64,000 nt of DNA from Acidobacteriota bacterium (GCA_965219005.1 CBDCMS010000003.1:706788-770787), one strand, 5' to 3'. Counted from the stretch's first letter, positions 1,605 through 21,399 are shown. Notes: generated by a model from the letters alone, not told the origin. Translations and numbers: made by a program.

Positions 1605-2369
1605 GGCTCGGCATCCGCAATACCGATGTCTGGCCAACGAGTGTGAGCGAGGGGTTGGGGTGCAACGAGATGCGTGGGCAAAGGGGCTCGAAGCTCTGGG
1701 AAGCAGCGAACTCGGGACGATTCGTGGTGTTCCCCAGCCCCTCGCTTGCGCTTCAGGCTTCCATGAATCGGCAATGCCTGAAGAAGCGGACATTCAAATC
1801 TTCCCCGGAAACGTTGAACGAACTACCCCAAACGGCCAATTGCAGACTGTAAACTGGGCCTTCGAAGCCTTGATCGTGGACGACATAGCTCCGTGACCCC
1901 TTCACTACCTTACCTTTGGCGGGCAGTGGATCAGGACAACCACCTGACAAAGCCATTGGCCCGGCCCGTCGCCACCCGAAGGGCAGATGGGGGTTGTGGA
2001 CGATCTCTGCGTTCGTCGTCTTCGAAAGATGGCTAACGCGAACGCTCGTCGTTCAACGGGTCCGGTAAGGAGAGCCAGAGGTCGTGATTCTGTTTGAACC
2101 TCGTAGATTCGTCCCGCCAAGCGTTTCCGGTAGAGCATGCCCCGCGCTGGCACCTACCGGTCTCGTCATCCCGAGCACACCGCCTTCTACCAGTGTCTGG
2201 AAGACTACTGGGAAGAATTCCAGGAGGCTTATCCCTAGTGCCGAACAGACACTCGCAGCGTCCCCGGGCCTGCGGTGAGTGGGCCACGATCAACTCCACC
2301 CCCAGCATGCTAGCGACAACGGTGAGTCCCGAGGTTGACGGGGGCTCAGCCGCTGGCTAGAGTTCGGAA

Positions 2370-3611
2370 ATGATTTACAGGAGCCTGTTTCTAGCCTCCG
2401 TGTGTGCCCTTCTCGTGCTCCCATCCCACGCCAAGGAAAAGGTCATGATCCTGAGTTGGGGTGATGTCATTTGGCAGCACCGAGGAGAGGGAAGCGCCCA
2501 GCTGGACACTCCGCAGAAGGTCCGCGAGGCTGCCCTGATCTGGAAGTCCCGAGGAGTCACCAAGGTCTTGTTCCGGGTCGATGACTTTCGCATCGTCCTC
2601 TTCCACGAGACCAAGCCCGCTTACAACAACCGCTACGCCCAGGAATGGTCGAAGGTCTCAAAGCGAGCCTGGGATGAGGGACTGCTGAAGGTCGCCGTCG
2701 AGGCGATTCACCAGCAGGGCATGAAAGTCGACATGTGGATCACCATCTTCGACGAGGGATGTCCTCACGAGGTCCTCTATGGGGACAACCACTTCTTTTC
2801 CTGGCAGTCCCGTTTTACTCGGGACAACCCTCAATACCTCTCCTGCGATCGATCCCTCACTCCGAACCAGCGGCAGTACCATTGGGGTGTACTGGAGTGG
2901 GCCTATCCCGAGGTGAGGCGCTACATGCTGGACGTGATCCGTGCCTTTTCCGACCCTTTTGATTTCGATGGGGTCTTCCTGAGCGTCCGTTCCCATGCCC
3001 CTCCGGCAGAGCATGCCGACCAGTTCGGGTTCAATCGACCGGTAGTAGAGGAGTTTCAGCGGAGATATGGAAGGAACATCCTTCAGACCAGTTTCGATCT
3101 CGAGAAGTGGAGAGACCTCAGAGGCGAGTATTTCAGCAGCTTTCTGAGCGAGGTCAAGAAGCACGTTCAGAGCAAGGGACAGACCCTTTCCATCGGCGTG
3201 GCCCAGGGAGACTATATCGGTCCTCCCTTCGGCAATATGAAGCTGCAGTGGCGGTACTGGGTTTCCGAAGGGATCATCGACGGCCTGGTCATCGGTCACA
3301 TCACGAATGAAAGAGCCCGCTATCCCAGGCGTGCCCAAAGAGCGATGGGCTACATCCACAATCAGGAAGAAGGGGTAGGACTTCCACCGATTGAAGAGGC
3401 CGTGCGGGACGACTATGGACCTCTCTGCCAGCGGTATGGAGTTGGTCTCTATCTAGAGCCCCGCAACTTCAATCTCAGCTTCGCCCACCCCAGCTATGGC
3501 AAAGGCTCGCAGGATGCCGAGGTGCGAGAGAAGCTTATCCAGGCATTCGAGAAATCCCGCAGCGTCACAGGTATCCTGTACAGCTATCGACGGGTGATGG
3601 AGAACCCTTGA
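2370..3611 (+). CDS. Secreted glycoside-hydrolase-like family 10 (GHL10/YngK-like TIM-barrel) protein
   Basis: N-terminal signal peptide MIYRSLFLASVCALLVLPSHA. The motif YPEVRRYMLDVIRAFSDPFDFDGVFL resembles the GHL10 PEVRxYxxDVxxExxxxYDxDGxxxD signature. Exact duplicate at 17718..18959. Confidence 0.55.
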   Translation: MIYRSLFLASVCALLVLPSHAKEKVMILSWGDVIWQHRGEGSAQLDTPQKVREAALIWKSRGVTKVLFRVDDFRIVLFHETKPAYNNRYAQEWSKVSKRAWDEGLLKVAVEAIHQQGMKVDMWITIFDEGCPHEVLYGDNHFFSWQSRFTRDNPQYLSCDRSLTPNQRQYHWGVLEWAYPEVRRYMLDVIRAFSDPFDFDGVFLSVRSHAPPAEHADQFGFNRPVVEEFQRRYGRNILQTSFDLEKWRDLRGEYFSSFLSEVKKHVQSKGQTLSIGVAQGDYIGPPFGNMKLQWRYWVSEGIIDGLVIGHITNERARYPRRAQRAMGYIHNQEEGVGLPPIEEAVRDDYGPLCQRYGVGLYLEPRNFNLSFAHPSYGKGSQDAEVREKLIQAFEKSRSVTGILYSYRRVMENP

Positions 3612-3830
3612 ACGGCTTGCAATCCCATCGCGCTTGTCTGCGGGTAGACTCCCCCAAAAGCTTTTCTACCAACTAGTGCAGCAGCCCGTCGCCATGGACC
3701 GGATACTGTTGGAAATCTACGCTGCTGAGGGATCGAAAACGCCGACCATAGCCAAGGTTGGGTTCTGGGTTTTCCTGGCGAAAGGTTTGGAGTATGAAGA
3801 GCTGAGCTGGTCCCGAGCAACCAATGTGAC

Positions 3831-6020
3831 ATGGGGCAGTTCGCGAGTTCAGCCACGGGCCTCCCCTTACTGGCGAGAGGCTCTGCATCAGACGGGGGAC
3901 CATTGCTAGGGCCGCAGTCGAGAGTATCCAGCAAGCGATGCACGATTGGAGTGTGGTCGTTTGCCTTAGTTGGCAAGAAATTGAACCACGCGGAGGTGCG
4001 CTCGGCGATCAAAGAACTGGCTGAAACGGGAACGGACCTGATCTCACTGCAAGTTTATGAAGCCTACCTTGGAAAACTATGTTACCGATCACGACGGTAC
4101 CCTGACTTTGTTCTGGTCGAGCAAGCCGATACAACGCGCGCAATGTATGAAGCGTGTGTCGAAAATGGGATTCGAATCTGGCTACACTGTGACGAACGAG
4201 CCGCGCCGTACGGTAGCGCACTCCAAAAACATTTTGCAGATTGCTCGGAGCGAAACGCCCAAGGAGAATTGTGCCCCATGTGGGACGGCGTTTTGTTCTG
4301 TCTTCACTCGCGATATCGAAATTTCCTGAAGGACGTATACCAAGAGGCATTGGAGCTATTCCCTGAAGTTGAGGGCGTGGTAGTCGTTGATGAAGGTGGC
4401 TTCGTAGTCGGAAATGAAGGCTACTGTACACGCTGCCTCACGAAATTTCGTCAGAAATATGGCCTCGATCCACCTTTAGACCCTGACTGGCTCGACCTTG
4501 AAGGCCGGTGGTGGCAGTTCATCCGCGAACGCCTGGCCTGGTGGACCGAGTACGTCGACTTTCTCGCCAAGGCGTGTAAGGAGGTCAGACCAGATGTTCA
4601 TACGGCCGTCATGCTTAATCCTCACGGGCTTGAACAGCCTTCCCTGGCCGGCGTGGATTGGTGGGAGATCGCAAGACTCAACTCGGTCGACTCGATTGGA
4701 ACAGCCTTTCATTTCCGGCATGAGCATCATCCGGTGGCTGTCGCCAGAGCTGCAGCCTTCGTCACACAAATAGCCCGACGGGCGGGAAAGTCTGCGTTCC
4801 TGAAGTTGGCTGCTCACCGCGAAATATCACATAAGGATCTCCTATTTAGCGCCTACCACTCGGCTGCTGGTGGGGTGGATACGATCTTGTTTGTCAATCT
4901 TGAGACGCTGGTATCTGCCCCCGGCACCCAGATAGCCCTCGGGACTATTTGTACCAGGATTAGGGACGTACGGTTACACTCTTGTGAGCAGTCCCCGGCT
5001 TCCTACGCGGGCTTGTGGTTCTCGCAATCAGAGTTTTACACGTATTGGGGCGATCTAGCCACAGGCTACAATGCGGAGCATATGGGCCTGTTTCAAGCCG
5101 CGGCCTTAAATTCTCTACCTGTTCAGTTTGTTTTTGACGAAGACTTGGAACGAAGCTTGTCGCAAGATCTACGCGTCCTCGTGTTCGTAGTTCCAACCGA
5201 AATCACTTCCACTCAAGTTCAAATGCTCCAACGATTCGTTAGCGCGGGCCACGGTATCGTCGGCGTGGCAGTCAACATGAACTCTCCTTCAGCAAGCGTG
5301 CGTCGCCTTCTAACAGACTTGTTTCGCTGTCGCTATCAAGGACTCACGGGACCCATCACCTGCATAAGGTATCCGGACCACTCCAAGATGTTCACAACAG
5401 AACTACCGACTGACGACCTCCCAGTGTACCAATCGCCCACCAAAGGAGGAGCGTTCAATTACTTTTCTGGGAGAGGGACGCTTCGGCAGGGGTACAAACG
5501 GCCGGCTCTCGTTCTGTTGCCGGGATCCCGACCAGTAGCGTCGCTGGTGGATGATGACGGAGTGACCTGGCCCGGCGTGGTCGTGGCACATCATGGAAAA
5601 GGAAGGGTTGTCCTACTCGCTGAACCGTTGGGCACTATGGTGAGCAACCTCGCTGAGCACGCGACGGGGCTGGACTCGCATTGGTTACGATGGGGAAAGG
5701 AAGCAGGTCGCGTTCTGGCTGATTGTTTTAGCTGGGCGGCTGCCACTCCTCCTCCAATTACGGTTTCCTCTCTCAGAGGTAATATTTCTTCTCACATGTC
5801 GCGACAAGATGGAGCCATTCGAGTGAGGATGGTGAACAACGACTATTTCCAAGCGGACAGGGTGACGGTAAAAGCTTCTCTGCAGTATTACTCAGATAAG
5901 AAACCTACTGCCCTGGGTTTCGATAGCGTGAATGTTACCAAGGACAACGGGCACATCACACTGGAAGGTTGGATAAGCCCGGCTGATGCCGTGACCGTTG
6001 AATTTTCTGAACCGCTATAG
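3831..6020 (+). CDS. GH42-like beta-galactosidase family protein; the N-terminus is uncertain and may begin at a downstream GTG
   Basis: The Cys cluster VGNEGYCTRCLTKFRQKYG matches the GH42 NEyg-C-x-C-x-x-C Zn-site pattern, and the catalytic region is TIM-barrel-like. No signal peptide. Exact duplicate at 19179..21368. Confidence 0.5.
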   Translation: MGQFASSATGLPLLARGSASDGGPLLGPQSRVSSKRCTIGVWSFALVGKKLNHAEVRSAIKELAETGTDLISLQVYEAYLGKLCYRSRRYPDFVLVEQADTTRAMYEACVENGIRIWLHCDERAAPYGSALQKHFADCSERNAQGELCPMWDGVLFCLHSRYRNFLKDVYQEALELFPEVEGVVVVDEGGFVVGNEGYCTRCLTKFRQKYGLDPPLDPDWLDLEGRWWQFIRERLAWWTEYVDFLAKACKEVRPDVHTAVMLNPHGLEQPSLAGVDWWEIARLNSVDSIGTAFHFRHEHHPVAVARAAAFVTQIARRAGKSAFLKLAAHREISHKDLLFSAYHSAAGGVDTILFVNLETLVSAPGTQIALGTICTRIRDVRLHSCEQSPASYAGLWFSQSEFYTYWGDLATGYNAEHMGLFQAAALNSLPVQFVFDEDLERSLSQDLRVLVFVVPTEITSTQVQMLQRFVSAGHGIVGVAVNMNSPSASVRRLLTDLFRCRYQGLTGPITCIRYPDHSKMFTTELPTDDLPVYQSPTKGGAFNYFSGRGTLRQGYKRPALVLLPGSRPVASLVDDDGVTWPGVVVAHHGKGRVVLLAEPLGTMVSNLAEHATGLDSHWLRWGKEAGRVLADCFSWAAATPPPITVSSLRGNISSHMSRQDGAIRVRMVNNDYFQADRVTVKASLQYYSDKKPTALGFDSVNVTKDNGHITLEGWISPADAVTVEFSEPL

Positions 6021-6024
6021 GGCG

Positions 6025-7191
6025 TCACTTCCCATCGGGCCGGATGAAATACACGTACTCGTTGGTGTCACGTCCCTTGTAAACGATGCTGTAGACGGTC
6101 ATCAACTCGTTGGGAACGTCGTCGTCGTACTTGTTGATGATGCAGTTCTGACTGTACCCGTCAGGGTGTCCGATATCACCGCTAACGATGATCCCACTGT
6201 CCCACTTGATACCGTCGTCGGACTGGTAGAGAACAAAGCGGCGGCTGCCTTCTCCAACCTGGCCCGACCTTCCCTGTAGGTAGTACTTCCCACTGAGATA
6301 GGCAAGTTCGGGATCGCGAATCATCTTGTCCATATAGGCACGCCTCTGTTCGCTCCAGGTGCGGCCCTCATCCTGACTGATGCAATAGTAGAAATGGTGC
6401 TCGTCCTTCTCCGTGTAGGCACCGGCCAGCAGGCGCCCATCCGCCATGAAAATCATGGTGCCGTACCATTTGTCGTCGTCCAGCGTCAGCGTGCTCCTCT
6501 TGTGCCAGCTGCGCCCGTCATCCTTGCTGACGTACAGCACATGGGGATGACCTGCGCCCTTGCCCCTGTCGATCATGACATAGTTGGTCTCGCCCACCAC
6601 TGCCGTGGAACAGGGGGAGCCGACGAAATTACCGTCCATGGTCTCGTAATCCGTCCAGGTGGCGCCATCGTCGTAGCTTCTGATGACGCCGAGCTTGGTT
6701 CTGGTTTCCTCTCGTCGTCCAATCTTGAAGTGGCTCAGGAACAGTACGACGGTACCCTTCTCCGTGACCAGGCCCTCTTGCACCCAAACCGTGTTTTGCT
6801 GATCTCTTGCATACGCCTCAAAGGAGTATGGGAGCTTGTTGTACTTGTCCCAGGTCCTGCCGCGATCCTTGCTTACAGCATACTCGCTCCAACCATCCAG
6901 ATTGTGGTCGCTGGTGTTGGCATAGAAGGCCACGATGTTGCCGTTCGCGTACTCCATGCACACCGGGCCACCGTGGGAGCACCGGCCGGGAGCATCGTTC
7001 TCGAAATCGGCAATTATGGTTCCGAAGATGTCATCTCCGAGCTTGGTCGAAGGGTCGTAGTCGTAGATCACGGCACCATCAATGGGTTCGTATTGGGTAG
7101 TCTCGCCCTCAGACCCGGGATTCTGAGCGATCGCTACCAAGGAACAGCCCAGCAGGAACAGGAAAGCGATCATCGTACCTCTTTGTTTCAT
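6025..7191 (-). CDS. Secreted BNR/Asp-box repeat exo-alpha-sialidase-like protein
   Basis: Signal peptide MKQRGTMIAFLFLLGCSLVAIA. Five Asp-boxes: SKDRGRTW, SYDDGATW, SKDDGRSW, SQDEGRTW and SDDGIKW. A SD-like aaaggagaaaga precedes the ATG. Confidence 0.8.
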   Translation of the reverse strand: MKQRGTMIAFLFLLGCSLVAIAQNPGSEGETTQYEPIDGAVIYDYDPSTKLGDDIFGTIIADFENDAPGRCSHGGPVCMEYANGNIVAFYANTSDHNLDGWSEYAVSKDRGRTWDKYNKLPYSFEAYARDQQNTVWVQEGLVTEKGTVVLFLSHFKIGRREETRTKLGVIRSYDDGATWTDYETMDGNFVGSPCSTAVVGETNYVMIDRGKGAGHPHVLYVSKDDGRSWHKRSTLTLDDDKWYGTMIFMADGRLLAGAYTEKDEHHFYYCISQDEGRTWSEQRRAYMDKMIRDPELAYLSGKYYLQGRSGQVGEGSRRFVLYQSDDGIKWDSGIIVSGDIGHPDGYSQNCIINKYDDDVPNELMTVYSIVYKGRDTNEYVYFIRPDGK

Positions 7192-7423
7192 TGCCTTCTT
7201 TCTCCTTTCATCTCACATAGTTTACAGCCACCACGCTATCTCCACAGCAGGTTTCGACTGTGACGGGAGGGGATAGGATTGCTTTTCTGGGGGTCGGGTA
7301 TGGGTAGTGAATTCGCTGGGACTGGGGGTGAAGAAAAGAAGAAAAGGATCCGGGACGGGCGAGTTCCTGGCATCGCTCTCGCCCCAGCAGGCTCAAACAC
7401 CCGGCTCGCGACAAGCGAATCGC

Positions 7424-9070
7424 CTAGGCCTGAGACTCTGGCTTGCGGCCTGGGAACAGGAGACTAACCACGCACCCGACCGTGACGCCGACGATCAGCG
7501 CAACCGGTAGGATCCACTGGAAGCTGAAATAGGCGATCCCGGTCCACTCTGACGGCGGGGTCCATCCCAGGGACTCGATTGTCTTGTTGAGCGGGCCCCA
7601 GGAGGAGACCGCGGCCCCAGCCAGCAGAGCCGATGCCGCACCGGCTATCACTCCCCAGGCCGTGCTGAAGGGCACGAACAACGACAGAAAGAAGAGGAGA
7701 AAAAGCGGACCGACGTAAAGCTGTAGCGTTCGCTGCGTCATCTCCAGGAAGTTCCCGGGCACACTCCCGATCAAGAAGGAGCACGAAAAGACAACGATCA
7801 TACCGATCAGGAGAGCCAAGCCCTGTGAGAGCCTGACGCGGGCCGCTTCACTGAGCGGCTGACGGCGGAAGCGATCGAAGAAATCGGTCATGATCACGGC
7901 CGTGAGCGAGTTGACTCCCGAGTCGACACTCGACATCGCAGCCGCAAACAGGCCTGAGACCACCAACCCTGAGATCCCGATCGGCAAATGGTGAACGATG
8001 TAGTGTGGAAACACCCGGTCGGCCCCGACGCCCGCGGGCAGAAGATCCGGGCGAGCCTCGAAGTAGCCCAGCAGCGAGAAGGCCACCAGCACAAGAATCA
8101 CGGTCACCATCGCGCTGGCGACCGAGTTCATCAGGAACGATCTTTGGGCAGACCGCACGTCGACGGTTGACATGAAACGCTGCACGGCAGTCTGATCACC
8201 TCCCGCGGTACAGAGCCACCAGAGCGTTGAACCCATGACCGTACCGAAGACGGTCACCCGCACGTTGGGATCCAGGCTGAAGAGCGGTTGGGTGTCCCAG
8301 TTGGCATTCCACTCGGTCGGAATCCAGCCGAATCCCCCCAGGCGGACCGTGACCGTGATGACCACGAGCGCGGCTCCGCCGAACAGCAGACAGAACTGCA
8401 GCAGATCCGTGATGACCACGGCCCGCAGGCCCCCGAAGGAAGCATACGTGATCGCCACGATCCCGATCGCCAGCGAGACGTAGGGAAGCTTGTTCTGATC
8501 CAGGTTCAGCATCTGGAGCATGGCCTGTGAGCTCAGATAGATGAGCAGTGACATCCAGGTCAACCTGAGAAAGATGAACATCACAGCACCAGTCATCCGC
8601 ACACCCAAACCGCGCTTCTGCTCCAGCAGCTCATAGGCACTGATCACCCGAAAACGCATGTAGGCGGGCACCACCAGGTAACCGACAATCAGGTAGTAGA
8701 GGGGTATGGCGAGGATTTGGGAGAGGAAAGCCGGCCCCTTCCCGTAGATCTCCCCTGGAACGGAGAGAAAGGAGATGGTGCTGAACAGGGTGACGAACAT
8801 CGAAACCCCAATCAGCTGCGGATTCATGGTTCGGTTGCCAACGAAGTACTCTTCAGTACTCTTCTGTCTCTTGCTGTAGTAGAACCCCAGGGCGATCATG
8901 CCGAAGGCATAGAGCGCAACGATGAGTCCGTCGACCCAGTGAAGACCACTGCTCTCCAGAGAACCCTGCATCTGTTCTCCACCCCACGCCTCGGTCAGCG
9001 TGCCCCAGAGCACGCCACCCAGGAACAACATCGGATTAGGCGCTTTCCTGATGCGTCTGCTGTTATTCAT
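7424..9070 (-). CDS. Sodium:solute symporter family transporter, inverted paralog of 3..1604
   Basis: 548-aa multi-TM protein, near-colinear with the ORF at 3..1604. An alternative start at Met14 (MLFLGG) is possible. Confidence 0.8.
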   Translation of the reverse strand: MNNSRRIRKAPNPMLFLGGVLWGTLTEAWGGEQMQGSLESSGLHWVDGLIVALYAFGMIALGFYYSKRQKSTEEYFVGNRTMNPQLIGVSMFVTLFSTISFLSVPGEIYGKGPAFLSQILAIPLYYLIVGYLVVPAYMRFRVISAYELLEQKRGLGVRMTGAVMFIFLRLTWMSLLIYLSSQAMLQMLNLDQNKLPYVSLAIGIVAITYASFGGLRAVVITDLLQFCLLFGGAALVVITVTVRLGGFGWIPTEWNANWDTQPLFSLDPNVRVTVFGTVMGSTLWWLCTAGGDQTAVQRFMSTVDVRSAQRSFLMNSVASAMVTVILVLVAFSLLGYFEARPDLLPAGVGADRVFPHYIVHHLPIGISGLVVSGLFAAAMSSVDSGVNSLTAVIMTDFFDRFRRQPLSEAARVRLSQGLALLIGMIVVFSCSFLIGSVPGNFLEMTQRTLQLYVGPLFLLFFLSLFVPFSTAWGVIAGAASALLAGAAVSSWGPLNKTIESLGWTPPSEWTGIAYFSFQWILPVALIVGVTVGCVVSLLFPGRKPESQA

Positions 9071-9268
9071 TGGTCAACCGATTCACATGGAGGTCTATTC
9101 ACGCACCCCACCGGGGCCTCGTCTGCCTAAGGAACCTCGGAATCCTCTCAATGCAAAAGGTTCTGGTCAAGTCCGCTTCAACCGTCATTGAGTTCCAAGC
9201 AGGAAGTCACCACGCCCGTTAGAGGTATGGACCTGATGCGCCGACCTGTACTTCTGGACCCGAGAACG

Positions 9269-13608: not shown

Positions 13609-15207
13609 ATGGGAGGGAGGCTGACAACAATGACCCAACCGAGAGCGGATTGGATCGCGGTAGTCCGAGAGTCGAGCATCCTGGGATTCGTGGCCTGGCT
13701 CCTGGTGGTGATTTGCCAGGCCGCAGAACCGATCCACATCGGTTCTCGGCTGGAGCTGTTCGTCGACGATTACTTGATCGACACGATGGCAGGCGCCAGG
13801 TTGACGTTACATCAGCCGGTGGCGCGGGAGATCGCACTCGATCACAATGCAGTCCCCTGGGAAGGCAACACGTCGCTCTTTCACACGGTTTTCCAGGACG
13901 GGCCACTTTACCGCATGTACTATCGTGGCAAGCAGAATGAACCGACAGAAGATCCCGCGTTGCCTCCCCCCATCGTCTCGAGTTTTTTCTGTTATGCGGA
14001 GAGCGACGACGGTGTCCACTGGAGGCGGCCGGAGCTGGGTCTGGTCGAGTTCCAGGGCTCGAAGAAGAACAACATCGTCTGGTCACACGCCGACTCGGCG
14101 CGACTCTGGGATGTCCCCAATACCGTGCTGATGGGGACGGATGACCCGGATGCCTTTCGGTATTCCAGTCCTATCAACTTCACGGTATTCAAGGACACCA
14201 ATCCCGACTGCCCGCCGGAAGTACGCTACAAGCTGATGGGAGGGTCCTGGTTCGGGGGCACCTGGGTCTTCAAGTCGGCCGACGGGATCCACTTCACTCC
14301 CATGATCCGCGAACCGGTGATCCCGCCGGCGATGGGCAACAAGCTCAACCCGCGGTTTGCTGCCGACACCGCGGCACTCTGGGATCCGGTGGGAAGGCGC
14401 TATCTCAGCTTCCACAGGGCGGGACGGCTCGTGTACACCTGGCGCGAAATAGTGATGTCCAGCTCCACCGATTTTCTGGACTGGAGTGATCCCGTATATC
14501 TGGAGTATCCCGGCGCACCCGTCCAGCAGCTGTACACCAATTCGATCAACGCCTATGCGCGTGCACCCCACATTCTGCTGGGATTCCCCAAGCGGTTCAC
14601 CCAAGGGCGCAAGGCAACGATCGTGCCCGGCACCACCGATGGCCTCAGTGACGGCGTGTTCATGTCCAGCCGTGACGGCCTCCATTTCCGCCGCTGGGCC
14701 GAGGCTTTTGTGCGGCCGGGCCCCCAATCCGACCGCTGGGTCAGCCGCAACAACTCCATCGTCAACGGCGTCGTCGTCACCGGGTCCCATCTGGTGGATG
14801 CCCCCGATGAGCTGTCGATCTACGTCGTCGAGGGCTACTACAGTGTGAGCCGCAACAAGTGCCGGCTGCGCCGGCACACGATCCGCATGGACGGCTTCGT
14901 CTCGGTTCAGGCGCCCTTCAGCGGTGGCGAGCTCGTCACCAAGCCCGTCGTGTTCGAAGGGAAGACGTTGGTGATGAACTACTCGACCTCGGCCGCGGGC
15001 AGTGTCAGCGTGGAACTGCAGACCGAGTTCGGAAAGCCCATCGACGGCTTCACACTGGCGGACTCGGGAGAGATCTACGGCGACGAGATCGAACACGTGG
15101 TTTCCTGGAAGGGCAATTCCGACCTGAGCAAGCTGGCCGGCAAGCCGGTGAGGCTGAGGTTTGTGATCAAGGACGGCGATCTGTACTCCATCCGATTCCG
15201 GCCGTGA
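13609..15207 (+). CDS. Family A secreted Asp-box beta-propeller glycoside-hydrolase-like protein, subfamily A1; tandem paralog of the next gene
   Basis: Hydrophobic N-terminus. Motifs IGSRLELFVDDYLID, YRMYYRG, SDDGVHWRRP, SADGIHF and DGFVSV. C-terminal ending KPVRLRFVIKDGDLYSIRFRP. Confidence 0.8.
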   Translation: MGGRLTTMTQPRADWIAVVRESSILGFVAWLLVVICQAAEPIHIGSRLELFVDDYLIDTMAGARLTLHQPVAREIALDHNAVPWEGNTSLFHTVFQDGPLYRMYYRGKQNEPTEDPALPPPIVSSFFCYAESDDGVHWRRPELGLVEFQGSKKNNIVWSHADSARLWDVPNTVLMGTDDPDAFRYSSPINFTVFKDTNPDCPPEVRYKLMGGSWFGGTWVFKSADGIHFTPMIREPVIPPAMGNKLNPRFAADTAALWDPVGRRYLSFHRAGRLVYTWREIVMSSSTDFLDWSDPVYLEYPGAPVQQLYTNSINAYARAPHILLGFPKRFTQGRKATIVPGTTDGLSDGVFMSSRDGLHFRRWAEAFVRPGPQSDRWVSRNNSIVNGVVVTGSHLVDAPDELSIYVVEGYYSVSRNKCRLRRHTIRMDGFVSVQAPFSGGELVTKPVVFEGKTLVMNYSTSAAGSVSVELQTEFGKPIDGFTLADSGEIYGDEIEHVVSWKGNSDLSKLAGKPVRLRFVIKDGDLYSIRFRP

Positions 15208-15418
15208 GGCTGGAGCTTGGAATGTGTTTTCTCCAATCTCAGCGCAGCCGACTCGACATTTCCGGGAAGATTCTGAATGACCCCTTCTAGTAAGCAGTCA
15301 GTCAGGTCCGGCCTTGTTTGTACGGTCAGATCTGGGCTATTACACTTTCATGGTCCCTGAATACGCTCCCTTCCGAGATAGACTGGCTTTCAGCAAGACC
15401 CCCCGTCAAGGAGGAAGG

Positions 15419-17002
15419 ATGATGAGGACGGCGCTGCTTGTTTTCAGTCTGCTGCTCTCCCTCGCGGCGCTATTGTCGCACCCAGCCGAGACCACAAAGG
15501 CCCTGGACATCGGCTCCCGCTTGGAGCTGTTCGTGGACGACTACCTGATCGACACGATGGCGGGCGCCAGGCTGACGTTGCATCAGCCCGTGGCGAGGGA
15601 GATCGCACTGAATCACAATGCAGTCCCCTGGGAAGGCAACACGTCGCTCTTTCACACGGTTTTCCAGGACGGGCCACTTTACCGCATGTACTATCGTGGC
15701 AAGCAGAATGAGCCGACAGAAGATCCCACGTTGCCTCCCCCCGTCGTCTCGAGTTTCTTCTGTTATGCGGAGAGCGACGACGGTGTCCACTGGAGGCGGC
15801 CGGAGCTCGGCCTGGTCGAGTTCCAGGGCTCGAAGAAGAACAACATCCTCTGGTCACAGGCCGACTCGGCACGACTCTGGGACGTCCCCGATACCGTGCT
15901 GATGGGGACGGATGATCACCTTCAAGCCGAACCCCGAGATCTTCGAAGTTTTCGGTATTCCAGTCCTATCAACTTCACGGTATTCAAGGACACCCATCCC
16001 GACTGCCCGCCGGAAGCACGCTACAAGCTGATGGGAGGGTCCTGGTTCGGGGGCGTCTGGGCCTTCCAGTCGGCCGACGGGATCCACTTCATTCCCATGG
16101 TCCGGGAACCTGTGATTCCCCCGACGATGGGCAACAAGCTCAACTCGCCGTTTGCTGCCGACACCGCGGCACTCTGGGATTCGGTGGGAAGGCGCTATCT
16201 CAGCTACCACAGGGGAGGGCGACCGAAATACGTCTGGCGCGAACACTTCATGTCCAGCTCTGCCGATTTTCTCCACTGGAGCGAGCCCGTGTATCTGGAG
16301 TATCCCGGTGCACCCGTCCAGCAGCTGTATACCAATTCGATCAGCGCGTACGCTCGTGCACCCCACATTCTGCTGGGATTCCCCAAGCGGTTCACGCAAG
16401 GGCGCAAGGCGACGGAAGTGCCCGGCACCACCGATGGCCTCAGTGACGGCGTGTTCATGTCCAGCCGTGACGGGCTGCATTTCCGCCGCTGGGCTGAGGC
16501 TTTTGTGCGGCCGGGTTCCCAATCCGACCGCTGGGTCAGCCGCAACAACGCCATCGCCAACGGCGTCGTCGTCACCGAGTCCCATCTGGTTGATGCGCCC
16601 GATGAGCTGTCGATCTACGTCGTCGAGGGGTACTACAGTGTGATCAGCAACAAGTGCCGGCTGCGCCGGCACACGATACGGATGGACGGCTTCGTCTCGG
16701 CTCGGGCGCCCTTCAGCGGTGGTGAGCTCGTCACCAAGCCCGTCGTGTTCGGAGGGAAGACGTTGGTGATGAACTACTCGACCTCGGCCGCGGGCAGTGT
16801 CAGCGTGGAACTGCAGACCGAGTTCGGAAAGCCCATCGAGGGCTTCACGCTGGCCGACTGTGGAGAGATCTACGGCGACGAGATCGAACGCGTGGTTTCC
16901 TGGAAGGGCAGTTCCGACCTGAGCAAGCTGGCCGGCACGCCGGTGAGGCTGAGGTTCGTGATCAAGGACGGCGATCTGTACTCCATCCGATTCCGGCCGT
17001 GA
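15419..17002 (+). CDS. Family A protein, tandem paralog of 13609..15207 (about 90% aa identical)
   Basis: The ORF track opens at 15314. The likely start is the MMRTALLVFSLLLSLAALLS signal peptide, preceded by a aaggagga SD sequence. Confidence 0.8.
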   Translation: MMRTALLVFSLLLSLAALLSHPAETTKALDIGSRLELFVDDYLIDTMAGARLTLHQPVAREIALNHNAVPWEGNTSLFHTVFQDGPLYRMYYRGKQNEPTEDPTLPPPVVSSFFCYAESDDGVHWRRPELGLVEFQGSKKNNILWSQADSARLWDVPDTVLMGTDDHLQAEPRDLRSFRYSSPINFTVFKDTHPDCPPEARYKLMGGSWFGGVWAFQSADGIHFIPMVREPVIPPTMGNKLNSPFAADTAALWDSVGRRYLSYHRGGRPKYVWREHFMSSSADFLHWSEPVYLEYPGAPVQQLYTNSISAYARAPHILLGFPKRFTQGRKATEVPGTTDGLSDGVFMSSRDGLHFRRWAEAFVRPGSQSDRWVSRNNAIANGVVVTESHLVDAPDELSIYVVEGYYSVISNKCRLRRHTIRMDGFVSARAPFSGGELVTKPVVFGGKTLVMNYSTSAAGSVSVELQTEFGKPIEGFTLADCGEIYGDEIERVVSWKGSSDLSKLAGTPVRLRFVIKDGDLYSIRFRP

Positions 17003-17171
17003 GGCTGGAGCTCGGAAGGCCGGTTCTCCTGAATTTGGCCGTAGCGGCTGAGGGACATAGTTGATGCTCGCATAGAGATTGAATATGTGCTTCAAGGAGC
17101 TGCCTCCGAGATGTTCTGATTCTCTTTGTAGTGCCTTCGTGATTCCCATGCTGGTGTGATCCTGCGTGGAC

Positions 17172-17337
17172 CTAGTACCCTGTCAATTTAGAGATTGTGG
17201 GTTATGGGCGAGCAATGGTGGTCGAGGTCAAGGCGCGCGGCCACAGGCATAGCAGGGCTATTCCGAGGACGCGCAACACAGAGATCGGCCTCCAGGGCCG
17301 TCCAGAACCCACAGTTTCTAAGTTGACAGGGTACTAG
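17172..17337. mobile_element. MITE-like 166-bp element with 19–20-bp terminal inverted repeats
   Basis: ctagtaccctgtcaatttag at 17172..17191 against its reverse complement ctaagttgacagggtactag at 17318..17337 (1 mismatch). No ORF inside. Intergenic. Confidence 0.35.
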
Positions 17338-17717
17338 TCTGGTGAGACCCAGCTGGCCGACCCTTGGATCGGAACTGCTTGTCGACCATCACCGTGATCC
17401 GGTGGCGGAAGGATGGGCTTGTGCAGCGGACAAGCGATTATTGCCGGAGAAGTGGCTAGGAGTAGAGCGGGAGAAGCCCCTCGTTTTCTCCAATCTCAGC
17501 GCAGCCGACTCGAACTACCCCAAACGGCCGATTGCAGACTGTAAACTGGGCCGCTTCGAAGCCTTGATCGTGGACGACATAGCTCCGTGACCCCTTCACT
17601 ACCTTTGGCCGGCAGTCCTGCGGTGAGTGGGCCACGATCAACTCCGGCCCCAGCATGCTAGCGACAACGGTGAGTCCCGAGGTTGACGGGGGCTCAGCCG
17701 CTGGCTAGAGTTCGGAA

Positions 17718-18959
17718 ATGATTTACAGGAGCCTGTTTCTAGCCTCCGTGTGTGCCCTTCTCGTGCTCCCATCCCACGCCAAGGAAAAGGTCATGATCCT
17801 GAGTTGGGGTGATGTCATTTGGCAGCACCGAGGAGAGGGAAGCGCCCAGCTGGACACTCCGCAGAAGGTCCGCGAGGCTGCCCTGATCTGGAAGTCCCGA
17901 GGAGTCACCAAGGTCTTGTTCCGGGTCGATGACTTTCGCATCGTCCTCTTCCACGAGACCAAGCCCGCTTACAACAACCGCTACGCCCAGGAATGGTCGA
18001 AGGTCTCAAAGCGAGCCTGGGATGAGGGACTGCTGAAGGTCGCCGTCGAGGCGATTCACCAGCAGGGCATGAAAGTCGACATGTGGATCACCATCTTCGA
18101 CGAGGGATGTCCTCACGAGGTCCTCTATGGGGACAACCACTTCTTTTCCTGGCAGTCCCGTTTTACTCGGGACAACCCTCAATACCTCTCCTGCGATCGA
18201 TCCCTCACTCCGAACCAGCGGCAGTACCATTGGGGTGTACTGGAGTGGGCCTATCCCGAGGTGAGGCGCTACATGCTGGACGTGATCCGTGCCTTTTCCG
18301 ACCCTTTTGATTTCGATGGGGTCTTCCTGAGCGTCCGTTCCCATGCCCCTCCGGCAGAGCATGCCGACCAGTTCGGGTTCAATCGACCGGTAGTAGAGGA
18401 GTTTCAGCGGAGATATGGAAGGAACATCCTTCAGACCAGTTTCGATCTCGAGAAGTGGAGAGACCTCAGAGGCGAGTATTTCAGCAGCTTTCTGAGCGAG
18501 GTCAAGAAGCACGTTCAGAGCAAGGGACAGACCCTTTCCATCGGCGTGGCCCAGGGAGACTATATCGGTCCTCCCTTCGGCAATATGAAGCTGCAGTGGC
18601 GGTACTGGGTTTCCGAAGGGATCATCGACGGCCTGGTCATCGGTCACATCACGAATGAAAGAGCCCGCTATCCCAGGCGTGCCCAAAGAGCGATGGGCTA
18701 CATCCACAATCAGGAAGAAGGGGTAGGACTTCCACCGATTGAAGAGGCCGTGCGGGACGACTATGGACCTCTCTGCCAGCGGTATGGAGTTGGTCTCTAT
18801 CTAGAGCCCCGCAACTTCAATCTCAGCTTCGCCCACCCCAGCTATGGCAAAGGCTCGCAGGATGCCGAGGTGCGAGAGAAGCTTATCCAGGCATTCGAGA
18901 AATCCCGCAGCGTCACAGGTATCCTGTACAGCTATCGACGGGTGATGGAGAACCCTTGA
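17718..18959 (+). CDS. GHL10-like secreted protein, identical duplicate of 2370..3611
   Basis: 413 aa, identical. Confidence 0.55.
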   Translation: MIYRSLFLASVCALLVLPSHAKEKVMILSWGDVIWQHRGEGSAQLDTPQKVREAALIWKSRGVTKVLFRVDDFRIVLFHETKPAYNNRYAQEWSKVSKRAWDEGLLKVAVEAIHQQGMKVDMWITIFDEGCPHEVLYGDNHFFSWQSRFTRDNPQYLSCDRSLTPNQRQYHWGVLEWAYPEVRRYMLDVIRAFSDPFDFDGVFLSVRSHAPPAEHADQFGFNRPVVEEFQRRYGRNILQTSFDLEKWRDLRGEYFSSFLSEVKKHVQSKGQTLSIGVAQGDYIGPPFGNMKLQWRYWVSEGIIDGLVIGHITNERARYPRRAQRAMGYIHNQEEGVGLPPIEEAVRDDYGPLCQRYGVGLYLEPRNFNLSFAHPSYGKGSQDAEVREKLIQAFEKSRSVTGILYSYRRVMENP

Positions 18960-19178
18960 ACGGCTTGCAATCCCATCGCGCTTGTCTGCGGGTAGACTCC
19001 CCCAAAAGCTTTTCTACCAACTAGTGCAGCAGCCCGTCGCCATGGACCGGATACTGTTGGAAATCTACGCTGCTGAGGGATCGAAAACGCCGACCATAGC
19101 CAAGGTTGGGTTCTGGGTTTTCCTGGCGAAAGGTTTGGAGTATGAAGAGCTGAGCTGGTCCCGAGCAACCAATGTGAC

Positions 19179-21368
19179 ATGGGGCAGTTCGCGAGTTCAG
19201 CCACGGGCCTCCCCTTACTGGCGAGAGGCTCTGCATCAGACGGGGGACCATTGCTAGGGCCGCAGTCGAGAGTATCCAGCAAGCGATGCACGATTGGAGT
19301 GTGGTCGTTTGCCTTAGTTGGCAAGAAATTGAACCACGCGGAGGTGCGCTCGGCGATCAAAGAACTGGCTGAAACGGGAACGGACCTGATCTCACTGCAA
19401 GTTTATGAAGCCTACCTTGGAAAACTATGTTACCGATCACGACGGTACCCTGACTTTGTTCTGGTCGAGCAAGCCGATACAACGCGCGCAATGTATGAAG
19501 CGTGTGTCGAAAATGGGATTCGAATCTGGCTACACTGTGACGAACGAGCCGCGCCGTACGGTAGCGCACTCCAAAAACATTTTGCAGATTGCTCGGAGCG
19601 AAACGCCCAAGGAGAATTGTGCCCCATGTGGGACGGCGTTTTGTTCTGTCTTCACTCGCGATATCGAAATTTCCTGAAGGACGTATACCAAGAGGCATTG
19701 GAGCTATTCCCTGAAGTTGAGGGCGTGGTAGTCGTTGATGAAGGTGGCTTCGTAGTCGGAAATGAAGGCTACTGTACACGCTGCCTCACGAAATTTCGTC
19801 AGAAATATGGCCTCGATCCACCTTTAGACCCTGACTGGCTCGACCTTGAAGGCCGGTGGTGGCAGTTCATCCGCGAACGCCTGGCCTGGTGGACCGAGTA
19901 CGTCGACTTTCTCGCCAAGGCGTGTAAGGAGGTCAGACCAGATGTTCATACGGCCGTCATGCTTAATCCTCACGGGCTTGAACAGCCTTCCCTGGCCGGC
20001 GTGGATTGGTGGGAGATCGCAAGACTCAACTCGGTCGACTCGATTGGAACAGCCTTTCATTTCCGGCATGAGCATCATCCGGTGGCTGTCGCCAGAGCTG
20101 CAGCCTTCGTCACACAAATAGCCCGACGGGCGGGAAAGTCTGCGTTCCTGAAGTTGGCTGCTCACCGCGAAATATCACATAAGGATCTCCTATTTAGCGC
20201 CTACCACTCGGCTGCTGGTGGGGTGGATACGATCTTGTTTGTCAATCTTGAGACGCTGGTATCTGCCCCCGGCACCCAGATAGCCCTCGGGACTATTTGT
20301 ACCAGGATTAGGGACGTACGGTTACACTCTTGTGAGCAGTCCCCGGCTTCCTACGCGGGCTTGTGGTTCTCGCAATCAGAGTTTTACACGTATTGGGGCG
20401 ATCTAGCCACAGGCTACAATGCGGAGCATATGGGCCTGTTTCAAGCCGCGGCCTTAAATTCTCTACCTGTTCAGTTTGTTTTTGACGAAGACTTGGAACG
20501 AAGCTTGTCGCAAGATCTACGCGTCCTCGTGTTCGTAGTTCCAACCGAAATCACTTCCACTCAAGTTCAAATGCTCCAACGATTCGTTAGCGCGGGCCAC
20601 GGTATCGTCGGCGTGGCAGTCAACATGAACTCTCCTTCAGCAAGCGTGCGTCGCCTTCTAACAGACTTGTTTCGCTGTCGCTATCAAGGACTCACGGGAC
20701 CCATCACCTGCATAAGGTATCCGGACCACTCCAAGATGTTCACAACAGAACTACCGACTGACGACCTCCCAGTGTACCAATCGCCCACCAAAGGAGGAGC
20801 GTTCAATTACTTTTCTGGGAGAGGGACGCTTCGGCAGGGGTACAAACGGCCGGCTCTCGTTCTGTTGCCGGGATCCCGACCAGTAGCGTCGCTGGTGGAT
20901 GATGACGGAGTGACCTGGCCCGGCGTGGTCGTGGCACATCATGGAAAAGGAAGGGTTGTCCTACTCGCTGAACCGTTGGGCACTATGGTGAGCAACCTCG
21001 CTGAGCACGCGACGGGGCTGGACTCGCATTGGTTACGATGGGGAAAGGAAGCAGGTCGCGTTCTGGCTGATTGTTTTAGCTGGGCGGCTGCCACTCCTCC
21101 TCCAATTACGGTTTCCTCTCTCAGAGGTAATATTTCTTCTCACATGTCGCGACAAGATGGAGCCATTCGAGTGAGGATGGTGAACAACGACTATTTCCAA
21201 GCGGACAGGGTGACGGTAAAAGCTTCTCTGCAGTATTACTCAGATAAGAAACCTACTGCCCTGGGTTTCGATAGCGTGAATGTTACCAAGGACAACGGGC
21301 ACATCACACTGGAAGGTTGGATAAGCCCGGCTGATGCCGTGACCGTTGAATTTTCTGGACCGCTATAG
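19179..21368 (+). CDS. GH42-like protein, duplicate of 3831..6020
   Basis: 729 aa, differing at one residue (E versus G near the C-terminus). Confidence 0.5.
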   Translation: MGQFASSATGLPLLARGSASDGGPLLGPQSRVSSKRCTIGVWSFALVGKKLNHAEVRSAIKELAETGTDLISLQVYEAYLGKLCYRSRRYPDFVLVEQADTTRAMYEACVENGIRIWLHCDERAAPYGSALQKHFADCSERNAQGELCPMWDGVLFCLHSRYRNFLKDVYQEALELFPEVEGVVVVDEGGFVVGNEGYCTRCLTKFRQKYGLDPPLDPDWLDLEGRWWQFIRERLAWWTEYVDFLAKACKEVRPDVHTAVMLNPHGLEQPSLAGVDWWEIARLNSVDSIGTAFHFRHEHHPVAVARAAAFVTQIARRAGKSAFLKLAAHREISHKDLLFSAYHSAAGGVDTILFVNLETLVSAPGTQIALGTICTRIRDVRLHSCEQSPASYAGLWFSQSEFYTYWGDLATGYNAEHMGLFQAAALNSLPVQFVFDEDLERSLSQDLRVLVFVVPTEITSTQVQMLQRFVSAGHGIVGVAVNMNSPSASVRRLLTDLFRCRYQGLTGPITCIRYPDHSKMFTTELPTDDLPVYQSPTKGGAFNYFSGRGTLRQGYKRPALVLLPGSRPVASLVDDDGVTWPGVVVAHHGKGRVVLLAEPLGTMVSNLAEHATGLDSHWLRWGKEAGRVLADCFSWAAATPPPITVSSLRGNISSHMSRQDGAIRVRMVNNDYFQADRVTVKASLQYYSDKKPTALGFDSVNVTKDNGHITLEGWISPADAVTVEFSGPL

Positions 21369-21399
21369 GGCCCGATTTCAGTCCCCTCTTCATCGGGGG

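What the first reader, a model, noticed from the sequence alone, without database searches (positions are those of the whole stretch)
1819..21372. Near-identical 3.9–4.2 kb direct segmental duplication of a GHL10-like and GH42-like gene pair, 15.3 kb apart
Copies 1819..6024 and 17510..21372 encode identical 413-aa and 729-aa proteins apart from one codon, and the few differences cluster at the left junction. This implies a very recent duplication or ongoing gene conversion, since the surrounding paralogs are only 80–90% identical. Copy 2 is preceded by a 32-bp sequence also found after gene 13609..15207, which may be a recombination junction. Such repeats can mediate deletion or amplification of the intervening 15 kb.
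Basis: seen in the sequence. Interest (0 to 1): 0.6.

Follow-up and report, generated by a model that had tools for sequence, protein, structure and literature searches.

The report
Strain-specific duplicated glycosidase gene pair
Two almost identical 3.9-kb copies of a pair of sugar-cleaving enzyme genes really do lie 15 kb apart in this uncultivated bacterium, but it is an ordinary strain-specific rearrangement, marked by insertion-sequence scars and kept uniform by recombination.

Summary
The repeat is real. Window 2269..6023 equals 17617..21371 (3755 bp, 3 mismatches). An upstream block, 1819..1927 versus 17511..17616, is more diverged. Copy 1 also carries a 341-bp piece holding a remnant of an IS91-family element.

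Each copy encodes a secreted GHL10-like protein and a 729-aa protein. The 729-aa protein has no Pfam hit, but its model has the three-domain GH42/GH164/GH151 fold.

Four related assemblies (95-98.6% identical) have one copy, with copy 1's left flank and copy 2's right flank. In a fifth contig the 11.5-kb intervening block X lies at another locus, beside a 1.8-kb partial copy. The window's arrangement is therefore a strain-specific structural variant.

Copy 2's left junction is a 2-3-nt microhomology join. It falls exactly where that relative has a 37-nt motif followed by an IS30-family element. Differences between the copies cluster at the edges, and the partial copy in the relative is a conversion mosaic. 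I conclude the second full-length copy is recent and that gene conversion also homogenises the copies.

An assembly artefact is unlikely, but reads were not available. Interest is modest.

The parts
1782..1815 (-). Copy of a ~37-nt palindrome-containing motif (GACGTTTCCGGGGAAAATCTGAATGTCCGC...). It forms the outer end of an IS30-family element in related loci, and lies 3-6 nt left of copy 1's boundary.
   Evidence: It aligns with the ends of the full IS30-family copies in L006 and L013. The transposases of those copies match NF033563 at 288-292 bits.
1819..1927 (+). Copy 1, left block (109 nt).
   Evidence: It matches 17511..17616 with 4 difference events. It is identical to the single-copy relatives L007 and L014-L016.
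1928..2268 (+). 341-bp piece present in copy 1 only. Positions 1963..2237 are the 5' end of an IS91-family element, including the first 33 codons of its transposase (ORF 2137..2238).
   Evidence: It is 94% identical to L011 15669..15396, which lies upstream of a Y2_Tnp ORF. It is 76% identical to the start of a full IS91-family gene in L017. It is present in L007 and L014-L016 and absent from copy 2 and L005.
2269..6023 (+). Copy 1, main block (3755 bp).
   Evidence: It is 99.92% identical to 17617..21371, with 3 mismatches.
2370..3611 (+). Gene for a 413-aa GHL10-like protein with a signal-peptide-like N-terminus, copy 1.
   Evidence: Pfam PF02638 scores 31.3 bits against a cut-off of 27.9. 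The ORF is listed.
3831..6020 (+). Gene for a 729-aa three-domain GH42/GH151-like protein, copy 1 (Glu727).
   Evidence: It has no Pfam or NCBIfam hit. There are 57 HMMER relatives among 1.84 billion representatives. The model has pLDDT 82. Foldseek gives GH42, GH164 and GH151 structures at TM about 0.65. A profile search gives 6tvk at 2e-50.
6024..17510 (.). Intervening block X (11,487 bp): BNR388(-), SSF(-), BNR375(-), a PSD1 fragment, an enolase-superfamily gene(-), a 2-hydroxyacid dehydrogenase(-), and tandem 525-aa and 527-aa genes(+).
   Evidence: Pfam results are and gene calls. The same block lies at another locus in L013/L018 at 96.5-99% identity.
15226..15256 (+). 31-mer, first copy: the downstream flank of the 525-aa gene. 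It is followed at about 15255..15292 by another copy of the 37-nt motif.
17172..17337 (.). MITE-like insertion that folds as a near-perfect hairpin, within the 527-aa gene / copy 2 spacer.
   Evidence: Inverted ends were found. The fold is -113.6 kcal/mol with z = -9.8. Window 17177..17333 is absent from L013.
17483..17513 (+). 31-mer, second copy. Its last 3 nt (CGA) overlap the start of copy 2, making this the X|copy 2 junction.
   Evidence: In L013 the same flank (...gcagccgactc) is followed by the 37-nt motif and a full IS30-family element instead of copy 2.
17511..17616 (+). Copy 2, left block (106 nt). All of its differences from copy 1 are unique to copy 2.
17617..21371 (+). Copy 2, main block (3755 bp).
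   Evidence: An independent assembly from another sample (L005) reproduces X|copy 2|right flank with 4 substitutions in 12.8 kb.
17718..18959 (+). 413-aa GHL10-like gene, copy 2 (identical protein).
19179..21368 (+). 729-aa GH42/GH151-like gene, copy 2 (Gly727).
21372..23579 (.). Right flank B, including a 592-aa gene of unknown family at 21593..23371(-). It is contiguous with the single copy in all relatives.
   Evidence: L007, L010 and L014-L016 run from the unit straight into this flank.

Best explanation
**What it is.** This is a genuine, strain-specific segmental duplication. I call the duplicated unit U. It holds two genes: a secreted GHL10-like protein and a 729-aa three-domain glycosidase-like protein of the GH42/GH164/GH151 fold.

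**The usual state of the locus.** U normally sits once, between left flank A (an SSF symporter) and right flank B (a 592-aa gene). In a related lineage the 11.5-kb sugar-acid/BNR block X lies elsewhere, next to a 1.8-kb partial copy of U that I call U''.

**The state in this strain.** X lies between two full-length copies, giving A-U1-X-U2-B.
- The U1|X junction is the old U''-X adjacency minus about 190 bp.
- The X|U2 junction is an illegitimate join with 2-3 nt of microhomology. It falls at the outer edge of a 37-nt motif that forms the end of an IS30-family element. This junction looks derived.

**Most likely origin (inferred).** One or two events, started at that IS30-associated site and helped by the U/U'' homology, produced the arrangement. 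Two routes fit: a break-induced or template-switching copy, or an unequal sister-chromosome exchange followed by U/U'' recombination.

**Why the copies stay alike (inferred).** The copies remain nearly identical because the event is recent and because RecA-type gene conversion homogenises everything except the last roughly 30 nt at each edge. The direct repeats can in turn delete or amplify the 15.3-kb interval.
For: **Shown**
- The repeat geometry and the positions of the differences.
- Single-copy A-U-B in L007, L014, L015 and L016, and U-B in L010, at 95-98.6% identity.
- X next to a partial U'' with a different left flank, followed by an IS30-family element, in L013/L018.
- L013 probably belongs to the same strain as the L015-type genome. 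Both L012 and L013 are 4x contigs of one sample, and the first 1463 bp of U'' are identical to L015.
- In L013 the flank ...gcagccgactc is followed by the 37-nt motif and the IS. In the window the same flank is followed by copy 2. The transposase matches NF033563.
- The first 31-mer copy is followed by a copy of the same motif in both lineages. This polarises the X|U2 junction as derived.
- The two difference events in the main block lie within 31 nt of an end (P about 2.7e-4 if placed at random). The left block has 4 events in 105 nt against 2 in 3755 nt (Fisher 7e-6).
- Copies group by genome, not by flank: U1-U2 differ at 1 site, L15-L13 at 13, and between lineages at 60-67 of 1806.
- U'' is a mosaic.
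- Both 729-aa variants are on record from two sources, NCBI (3.02-Mb contig) and ENA (1.86 Mb). The window differs from the ENA contig by a 40-bp indel.
- A second sample reproduces X|U2|B.

**Inferred**
- The order of events and the repair pathway.
Against: - No outgroup fixes the ancestral arrangement. The reverse history, in which the window-like state is ancestral, is not excluded.
- Copy 2 lacks the IS91 remnant that copy 1 and all single-copy relatives carry. If copy 2 was copied from a remnant-bearing U, a 341-bp deletion spanning the whole remnant must also be assumed.
- The U1|X junction is seen only in this genome's assemblies. Reads were not available.
- Assigning L013 to the L015-type genome rests on coverage and sequence identity, not on linkage.
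- I could not check whether a second X or a W-U'' locus also exists in this genome, because the contig look-ups were exhausted.
Confidence: 0.65

Rival explanations
1. The duplication is old and is kept identical only by gene conversion. On this view A-U-X-U-B predates the split of these lineages. The single-copy A-U-B genomes arose by crossing-over between the two copies, and the W-U''-X locus arose by later rearrangement.
For: - Copy 2 looks like an 'empty site' for the IS91 remnant, which copy 1 and all A-U relatives share.
- The left block, shielded from conversion by the 341-bp heterology, is about 4% diverged, against 0.05% in the interior.
- Conversion demonstrably occurs in this family.
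- A single copy carries the edge states of copy 1 on its left and copy 2's flank on its right, as a crossover product would.
Against: - A full-length second copy is found in one strain only.
- X is not lost from the single-copy lineage. It sits at another locus with a truncated U'', so a simple crossover deletion does not explain that genome.
- The flank|motif arrangement after the 31-mer is shared by both tandem genes in the relative. This makes the flank|copy 2 join look derived.
Confidence: 0.22
2. It is an assembly artefact or a chimera of co-existing strains. The sample holds at least two strains, and a 3.9-kb repeat could have been mis-joined.
For: The same sample contains a 4x strain with different arrangements. 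The U1|X junction is seen only in this genome's assemblies.
Against: - The four junctions are all different sequences. The U1|X join (TAGGGC|G|TCACTT) cannot be built from the other strain's arrangements.
- The copies differ at fixed sites and by a 341-bp indel.
- The contig names suggest long-read assemblies at 13x (my reading of the naming style). Reads of that kind would usually span 3.9 kb.
- Both protein variants are on record from two sources, NCBI and ENA.
- A contig from a different sample reproduces X|U2|B at 99.97% identity.
Confidence: 0.05
3. U is itself a mobile cassette, such as a transposon or a unit moved by an IS91/ISCR-type element, and it copied itself to a second site.
For: An IS91-family remnant lies inside copy 1's left end. 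IS30-family-associated motifs sit at the left boundaries. A third copy of the GHL10 gene exists about 290 kb away.
Against: - U has no transposase or recombinase gene.
- U has no terminal inverted repeats and no target-site duplication.
- The IS91 remnant is absent from copy 2. Its transposase 5' end points into U, so on the usual model of IS91/ISCR one-ended transposition (from general knowledge) it would mobilise DNA on the other side.
- The right end of U carries no IS scar.
- No tRNA or known RNA element is nearby.
Confidence: 0.04

Closest known systems
Bacterial low-copy direct repeats under concerted evolution (for example tufA/tufB in Salmonella, rRNA operons) and the deletions or amplifications they mediate
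   Same: These are kilobase-scale direct repeats on one chromosome. The interior is kept identical while the edges diverge. Copies group by genome rather than by position, and single-copy structural variants occur in the population.
   Different: Here the second full-length copy is confined to one strain and its junction is IS-associated. The repeated genes are accessory glycosidase-like genes, not core genes. Conversion is inferred from sequence patterns, not measured.
IS30-family-mediated rearrangements (IS30 is described as preferring palindromic hot spots and its own inverted repeats, and as producing deletions, inversions and fusions; from general knowledge)
   Same: The X|copy 2 junction falls at the outer edge of a 37-nt palindrome-containing motif that abuts full IS30-family copies in related loci. 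Copies of the same motif lie next to copy 1's left boundary and after the first 31-mer.
   Different: No IS30-family copy remains at either junction in the window. Whether the motif is part of the IS or its preferred target is unresolved. No transposase-made 2-3-bp target duplication can be shown.
Microhomology-mediated break-induced replication / template-switching duplications (MMBIR/FoSTeS)
   Same: A duplication carries an inserted segment from another locus. The junction has 2-3 nt of microhomology. A cluster of small mutations and a 341-bp skip lie within about 140 nt of the new junction.
   Different: This is only a model that fits. The same pattern is produced by an older edge that escaped gene conversion.
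GH42 beta-galactosidases, GH164 beta-mannosidases and GH151 alpha-L-fucosidases (three-domain clan GH-A enzymes); Pfam GHL6/GHL10 'glycosyl hydrolase-like' families
   Same: The 729-aa model superposes on 5xb7, 6t5o, 6tvk and 4oif at TM about 0.65. Distant homologues carry GHL6 + Glyco_hydro_42M + ThuA-like domains. The alignment conserves a Cys cluster (C157, C199, C202) that recalls the Zn site of GH42 (from memory). The 413-aa protein passes the GHL10 threshold.
   Different: Identity to any solved enzyme is 10-14%. The protein itself has no Pfam or NCBIfam hit. There are only 57 HMMER relatives among 1.84 billion representatives. Catalytic residues and substrate are untested.

Membership tests
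Segmental duplication (dispersed direct low-copy repeat) | Two copies of at least 1 kb at 90% identity or more, in the same orientation, separated by unique sequence, with unrelated flanks | tested here: met
   3755 bp at 99.92% plus a 106-109-nt block. The offset is 15,348 bp and the flanks are about 25% identical.
Simple tandem duplication | Head-to-tail repeat of one contiguous segment with a single novel junction | tested here: not met
   Only U is repeated and X occurs once in the window. Relatives place X at a different locus.
Composite transposon / IS-bounded mobile unit | IS copies or terminal inverted repeats at both ends of the unit, plus a target-site duplication | tested here: not met
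   No terminal inverted repeats or flanking direct repeats were found. Only IS remnants or motifs are present, and only on the left side.
Concerted evolution by gene conversion | Paralogs group by genome rather than by flanking context | tested here: met
   U1-U2 differ at 1 of 1806 sites, L15 U - L13 U'' at 13, and between lineages at 60-67. Caveat: L013 is assigned to the L015-type strain by inference.
Concerted evolution by gene conversion | Mosaic tracts, or differences confined to the repeat edges | tested here: met
   U'' against U of L015 shows 0 differences over 4215..5677 and 14 over 5678..6021. Window differences lie within 31 nt of the block ends.
Assembly artefact | Junctions unsupported by spanning reads; collapsed or doubled depth | not testable with these tools
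   No reads were available. Indirect evidence against: both protein variants are on record from NCBI and ENA, and a second sample reproduces X|U2|B.
Pfam GHL10 (PF02638), 413-aa protein | Score above the gathering threshold | tested here: met
   31.3 bits against 27.9, covering residues 82-309.
GH42 (729-aa protein) | Match to Glyco_hydro_42 (PF02449) or Glyco_hydro_42M (PF08532) | tested here: not met
   The protein itself has no Pfam family. Only homologues at 20-29% identity carry GHL6 and Glyco_hydro_42M.
GH42 (729-aa protein) | Three-domain fold: TIM barrel, GH42M-type alpha/beta domain and C-terminal beta-sandwich | tested here: met
   The model has pLDDT 82 and pTM 0.86. Foldseek gives E of 1e-26 to 1e-22 and TM 0.62-0.65 to GH42, GH164 and GH151 structures.
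GH42 / GH151 (729-aa protein) | Conserved catalytic acid/base and nucleophile glutamates in register | not tested
   E172 is invariant in alignment A1. No structure-based residue mapping was done.
IS91 family (341-bp piece in copy 1) | Homology to the 5' end and first codons of a Y2-transposase gene | tested here: met
   94% nt identity to L011, upstream of a Y2_Tnp ORF. 76% identity to the start of an NF033538-positive gene in L017. The 33-aa ORF alone gives no Pfam hit and no significant tblastn hit.
IS30 family (element whose end-motif marks the junctions) | Transposase matching NF033563, and inverted terminal repeats | tested here: met
   288-292 bits against a cut-off of 80 for the L006 and L013 copies. 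Inverted-repeat cores are visible at both ends. Only motif copies, no full IS30-family element, lie at the junctions in the window.

The most novel reading that the evidence does not exclude
The ~37-nt palindrome-containing motif (GACGTTTCCGGGGAAAATCTGAATG...) may be a dedicated recombination hot spot used by the IS30-family element. It recurs at the borders of several gene modules: left of U, upstream of a BNR gene, after each tandem 525/527-aa gene, and in the U''-X spacer of L013. On this reading the glycan-utilisation modules of this symbiont are shuffled and copied as cassettes. The duplication of a very rare GHL10 + GH151/42-like pair would then be a dosage adaptation to host glycans.
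Probability: 0.12. Interest if true: 0.5.

Novelty: new member of a known kind. Interest (0 to 1): 0.3.

Why it matters
The locus is a clean natural example of how accessory carbohydrate-active gene clusters are rearranged between very close strains of an uncultivated bacterium. The closest public genome contig is a MAG labelled Acidobacteriota from the Langseth project, so the organism is probably sponge-associated.

Three things meet at this one locus:
- an IS-scarred junction;
- a pre-existing partial paralog that supplied homology;
- gene conversion that erases divergence.

There are also two practical points. Near-identical 3.9-kb repeats like this break short-read assemblies, and the short-read relative L010 ends inside the locus. 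The repeats also create copy-number variation.

The duplicated 729-aa protein belongs to a very small, unannotated branch of the GH42/GH151-like fold. It may be worth biochemical testing. None of this changes current concepts.

Tried and rejected
- **Pfam and NCBIfam on the 729-aa protein.** No hit, so I used an exhaustive HMMER search, a structure model and a fold search instead.
- **The 33-aa ORF in the 341-bp piece.** No Pfam hit. tblastn against plasmids gave only E = 4-9. The IS91 assignment came from nucleotide homology to related loci.
- **JGI metagenome scan for relatives of the 729-aa protein.** Nothing found.
- **GTDB genome scan.** One 5-kb contig only.
- **The 414-aa neighbour of the 53%-identical homologue in L008.** It is not a GHL10 protein, so the gene pair is not conserved at that distance.
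- **A common origin for the two proteins of the unit.** No similarity.
- **Terminal inverted repeats or target duplications around U.** None.
- **tRNA genes, Rfam families and terminators near the junctions.** Nothing above chance.
- **A step in divergence at position 4215, the left limit of U''.** None. Divergence from L015 rises gradually from about 1% to about 4%.
- **Campbell-type integration of a U+X circle.** Rejected as the sole mechanism, because the donor locus holds only the 3' 1.8 kb of U.
- **Single reciprocal crossovers or inversions between the two loci.** Rejected, because none yields two full-length copies.
- **The L011 locus as a guide to the native continuation of the 31-mer.** It lacks the 31-mer.

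Full report
**1. Observation**

A comparison of the window with itself at offset 15,348 shows one ungapped block, 2269..6023 = 17617..21371. It is 3755 bp long, with mismatches only at 2298, 2299 and 6010. A further block lies upstream, 1819..1927 versus 17511..17616. It differs by two substitutions, a 2-nt indel and a 5-nt indel.

Between the two blocks copy 1 has 341 extra bases (1928..2268). Outside these limits the flanks are unrelated.

The 413-aa ORFs are identical. The 729-aa ORFs differ at codon 727, Glu versus Gly.

The short repeat in front of copy 2 is an exact 31-mer, 15226..15256 = 17483..17513. Its last three bases (CGA) overlap the start of copy 2.

**2. The genes**

The 413-aa protein has a signal-peptide-like N-terminus and passes the Pfam GHL10 threshold, at 31.3 bits against a cut-off of 27.9.

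The 729-aa protein is harder to place:
- It has no Pfam or NCBIfam hit.
- It has three word-based homologues among 5.8 billion proteins.
- It has 57 HMMER hits among 1.84 billion representatives.
- Hits at 20-29% identity carry GHL6, Glyco_hydro_42M and ThuA-like domains.
- An AlphaFold model built from 16 sequences has pLDDT 82 and pTM 0.86.
- The model matches GH42, GH164 and GH151 structures at TM about 0.65 and 10-14% identity.
- A profile of the alignment finds the GH151 fucosidase 6tvk at 2e-50 and GH42 enzymes at about 1e-27.

'GH42-like' is thus right for fold and architecture, but family membership is not established.

The neighbours are SSF symporters, BNR/sialidase-like proteins, an enolase-superfamily enzyme and a 2-hydroxyacid dehydrogenase. 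This points to a sugar or sugar-acid scavenging region; that reading is inferred.

**3. Source**

The window matches the ENA metagenome contig ERZ25067264:ctg836442_13x_l (1.86 Mb). The exact proteins are also on record from NCBI, where the longest contig listed is 3.02 Mb.

The only GTDB hit is a 5-kb contig of 'MAG: Acidobacteriota bacterium isolate Langseth_Bin_00184'. The name points to the Langseth Ridge sponge grounds, where Acidobacteriota are abundant in Geodia (PMC8826442). The link between the MAG and that study is my inference.

**4. Comparative evidence**

I write A for copy 1's left flank, U for the unit, X for 6024..17510 and B for copy 2's right flank.

- *Same strain, second sample.* Contig L005 from another sample covers X-U2-B with 4 substitutions in 12.8 kb. 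That half is therefore reproduced independently.
- *Single-copy relatives.* L007, L014, L015 and L016 come from four samples at 95-98.6% identity. L014-L016 are 0.85-3.5-Mb contigs. All four carry a single A-U-B. L015 is colinear with window -2038..3668 and 19020..23579 and simply lacks the 15.3 kb. L010 shows U-B.
- *Shared features of those relatives.* They share copy 1's left-edge states and the 341-bp piece. They also have a 768-bp IS200-like insertion in the gene spacer that the window lacks.
- *X at another locus.* Contig L013/L018 is a 4x contig in the window's own sample. It carries X at 96.5-99% identity in a different locus. Left of X is a spacer of about 185 nt and a partial unit U'' that starts at window position 4215. 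U'' is preceded by unrelated genes W, with no GHL10 gene and no flank A. Right of X is the 31-mer flank, followed by a 37-nt motif and a full IS30-family element.
- *Which strain L013 belongs to.* Another 4x contig of that sample (L012) matches the contig_39 locus L011: it carries the same exact protein and gives the same BLAST pattern. The first 1463 bp of U'' are identical to L015. L013 therefore most likely belongs to the single-copy lineage. That lineage then has two loci, A-U-B and W-U''-X.

**5. Junctions**

*U1|X.* The window reads TAGGGC|G|TCACTT. L013 reads TAG CGCCCCATTTCA, then about 185 nt, then G TCACTT. Its first 12 nt after the stop codon are shared with the U|B junction. U1|X is therefore the old U''-X adjacency with about 190 bp deleted.

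*X|U2.* The flank ...gcagccgactc is followed by GA + ACTACCCC (copy 2) in the window. In L013 it is followed by GACGTTTCCGGGG..., the motif that forms the outer end of the IS30-family element.

The same motif occurs at three further places:
- after the first 31-mer, at about 15255..15292, in both lineages;
- in inverted orientation at 1782..1815, 3-6 nt left of copy 1;
- upstream of a BNR gene outside the window.

Because both tandem genes have flank|motif in the relative, flank|copy 2 is best read as derived.

U has no terminal inverted repeats or target duplication.

**6. Why the copies are so alike**

The two difference events in the 3755-bp block lie 30-31 nt from the left end and 14 nt from the right end. 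If placed at random, the probability of that is about 2.7e-4.

The 105-nt left block has 4 events, against 2 in 3755 nt (Fisher 7e-6).

Polarity of the differences:
- All left-edge differences are unique to copy 2.
- At 6010, copy 2, L007 and L010 have G, while copy 1 has A. L005's copy 2 also has A.

Over the 1.8 kb shared by all copies, sequences group by genome and not by flank.

U'' is a mosaic. Against U of L015 it has no differences over 4215..5677 and 14 over 5678..6021. Nine of those 14 match the window's state. Gene conversion between copies is therefore demonstrable in this family.

For the window, two readings remain:
- a recent copy whose new junction carries a shower of small errors, including a 341-bp skip;
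- an older copy homogenised everywhere except its edges.

I favour the first, with conversion acting as well. A full-length second copy exists only in this strain, and the X|U2 junction looks derived. The missing IS91 remnant in copy 2 is the main point for the second reading.

**7. Mechanism**

The steps here are inferred, not shown. A break or transposase action at the IS30-associated site right of X joined X to the left edge of U through 2-3 nt of microhomology. The 1.8-kb U/U'' homology supplied the other join.

Two routes fit. One is a single break-induced, template-switching copy. The other is an unequal sister-chromosome exchange followed by U/U'' recombination.

I tested simple Campbell integration, a single reciprocal crossover and a single inversion on paper. 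None gives two full-length copies.

**8. Verdict**

This is a real, ordinary segmental duplication with an unusually well-documented population context.

An artefact is unlikely. The four junctions are distinct, the copies differ at fixed sites, the proteins are on record from two sources, and a second sample reproduces half of the structure. Reads were not available, so this is not proven.

Novelty is a new member of a known kind, and interest is modest. The rare GH-like family and the recurrent 37-nt motif are the only parts that might repay further work.

Noticed in passing
window 7222|7223: The ENA contig has 40 extra bases here (CGAGCGGGCGGCCGAGCGGCAGGCGGCCGAGCACGCCGAA), in the BNR388/SSF intergenic region. 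The window lacks them. The window therefore seems to come from another assembly version of the same genome, probably the 3.02-Mb NCBI contig.
   Followed up: partly
window 17172..17337: A ~165-nt insertion with ~32-nt inverted ends folds into a near-perfect hairpin (-113.6 kcal/mol, z = -9.8). Window 17177..17333 is absent from L013, so it is MITE-like. No other copy occurs in the window or in the fetched loci, apart from the same site in L002, L004 and L005.
   Followed up: partly
window 6025..7268 (-) and L006 2095..3338 (window -7855..-6612, +): A 1244-bp inverted repeat at 98.55% identity carries a 388-aa BNR-repeat gene. One arm ends exactly at its stop codon, one base from copy 1's right end. 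A third copy at 97-98% lies in L017.
   Followed up: partly
L017 9954..11312 (same 1.86-Mb contig, about 290 kb away): A third copy of the GHL10-like gene is 97.2% identical over window 2323..3683. It has no 729-aa partner and is flanked by BNR genes, with a full IS91-family transposase gene nearby.
   Followed up: partly
window 13736..15222 and 15507..17017; also 24.6-38.6 kb: Tandem 525-aa and 527-aa genes are 91.5% identical. Further paralogs lie at 24672..26309, 29448..30344, 31841..33355(-) and 33371..34957 (74-91%). The 527-aa protein belongs to a very large unannotated family, with 5936 proteins at E<=1e-30 among the scored candidates. A few members are tagged with the GH32 N-terminal domain.
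   Followed up: partly
window 28094..29437: A 1344-bp insertion sequence (DDE_Tnp_1 transposase, ORF 28188..29399) is present in the window but absent from the near-identical strain L005. It is a polymorphic IS insertion.
   Followed up: no
window 26448..27997: L005 differs from the window at about 22 substitutions in this 1.5 kb (the 531-aa gene), against 4 in the preceding 12.8 kb. This is a patch of recombination or paralog conversion between otherwise identical strains. The single-base insertions in L005 at 23687..26926 look like low-coverage errors.
   Followed up: no
L007 2313..3080; L015 8626..9394 (between window 3668 and 3672): Relatives carry a 768-bp insertion in the spacer between the two genes of the unit. 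It holds the C-terminal end of an IS200-like Y1 transposase (Pfam 21.7 bits, just under the cut-off) and palindromic repeats. The window has neither.
   Followed up: partly
window 10423..11631: This 1.2-kb stretch (a PSD1-domain fragment and part of the enolase-superfamily gene) is missing from L013, so that gene is truncated there.
   Followed up: no
window 65..1576 (+) and 7458..8969 (-): The SSF symporter genes form an 84%-identical inverted pair around copy 1. L011, from a related genome, has a 527-like gene directly followed by an SSF gene and an IS91-family element.
   Followed up: partly
window 17683..17711 (= 2335..2363): The only sigma-70-like match in the copy 2 region (TTGACG-17-TAGAGT) lies inside the duplicated block, just upstream of the GHL10-like start codon. 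Both copies may therefore carry their own promoter. The count is not above chance.
   Followed up: no
window 40277..41662 and 54926..56221: More mobile-element genes lie further along the window: an IS1182-family transposase (NF033551, 371 bits) and a DUF4158-containing ORF, a domain I recall from Tn3-family transposases.
   Followed up: no
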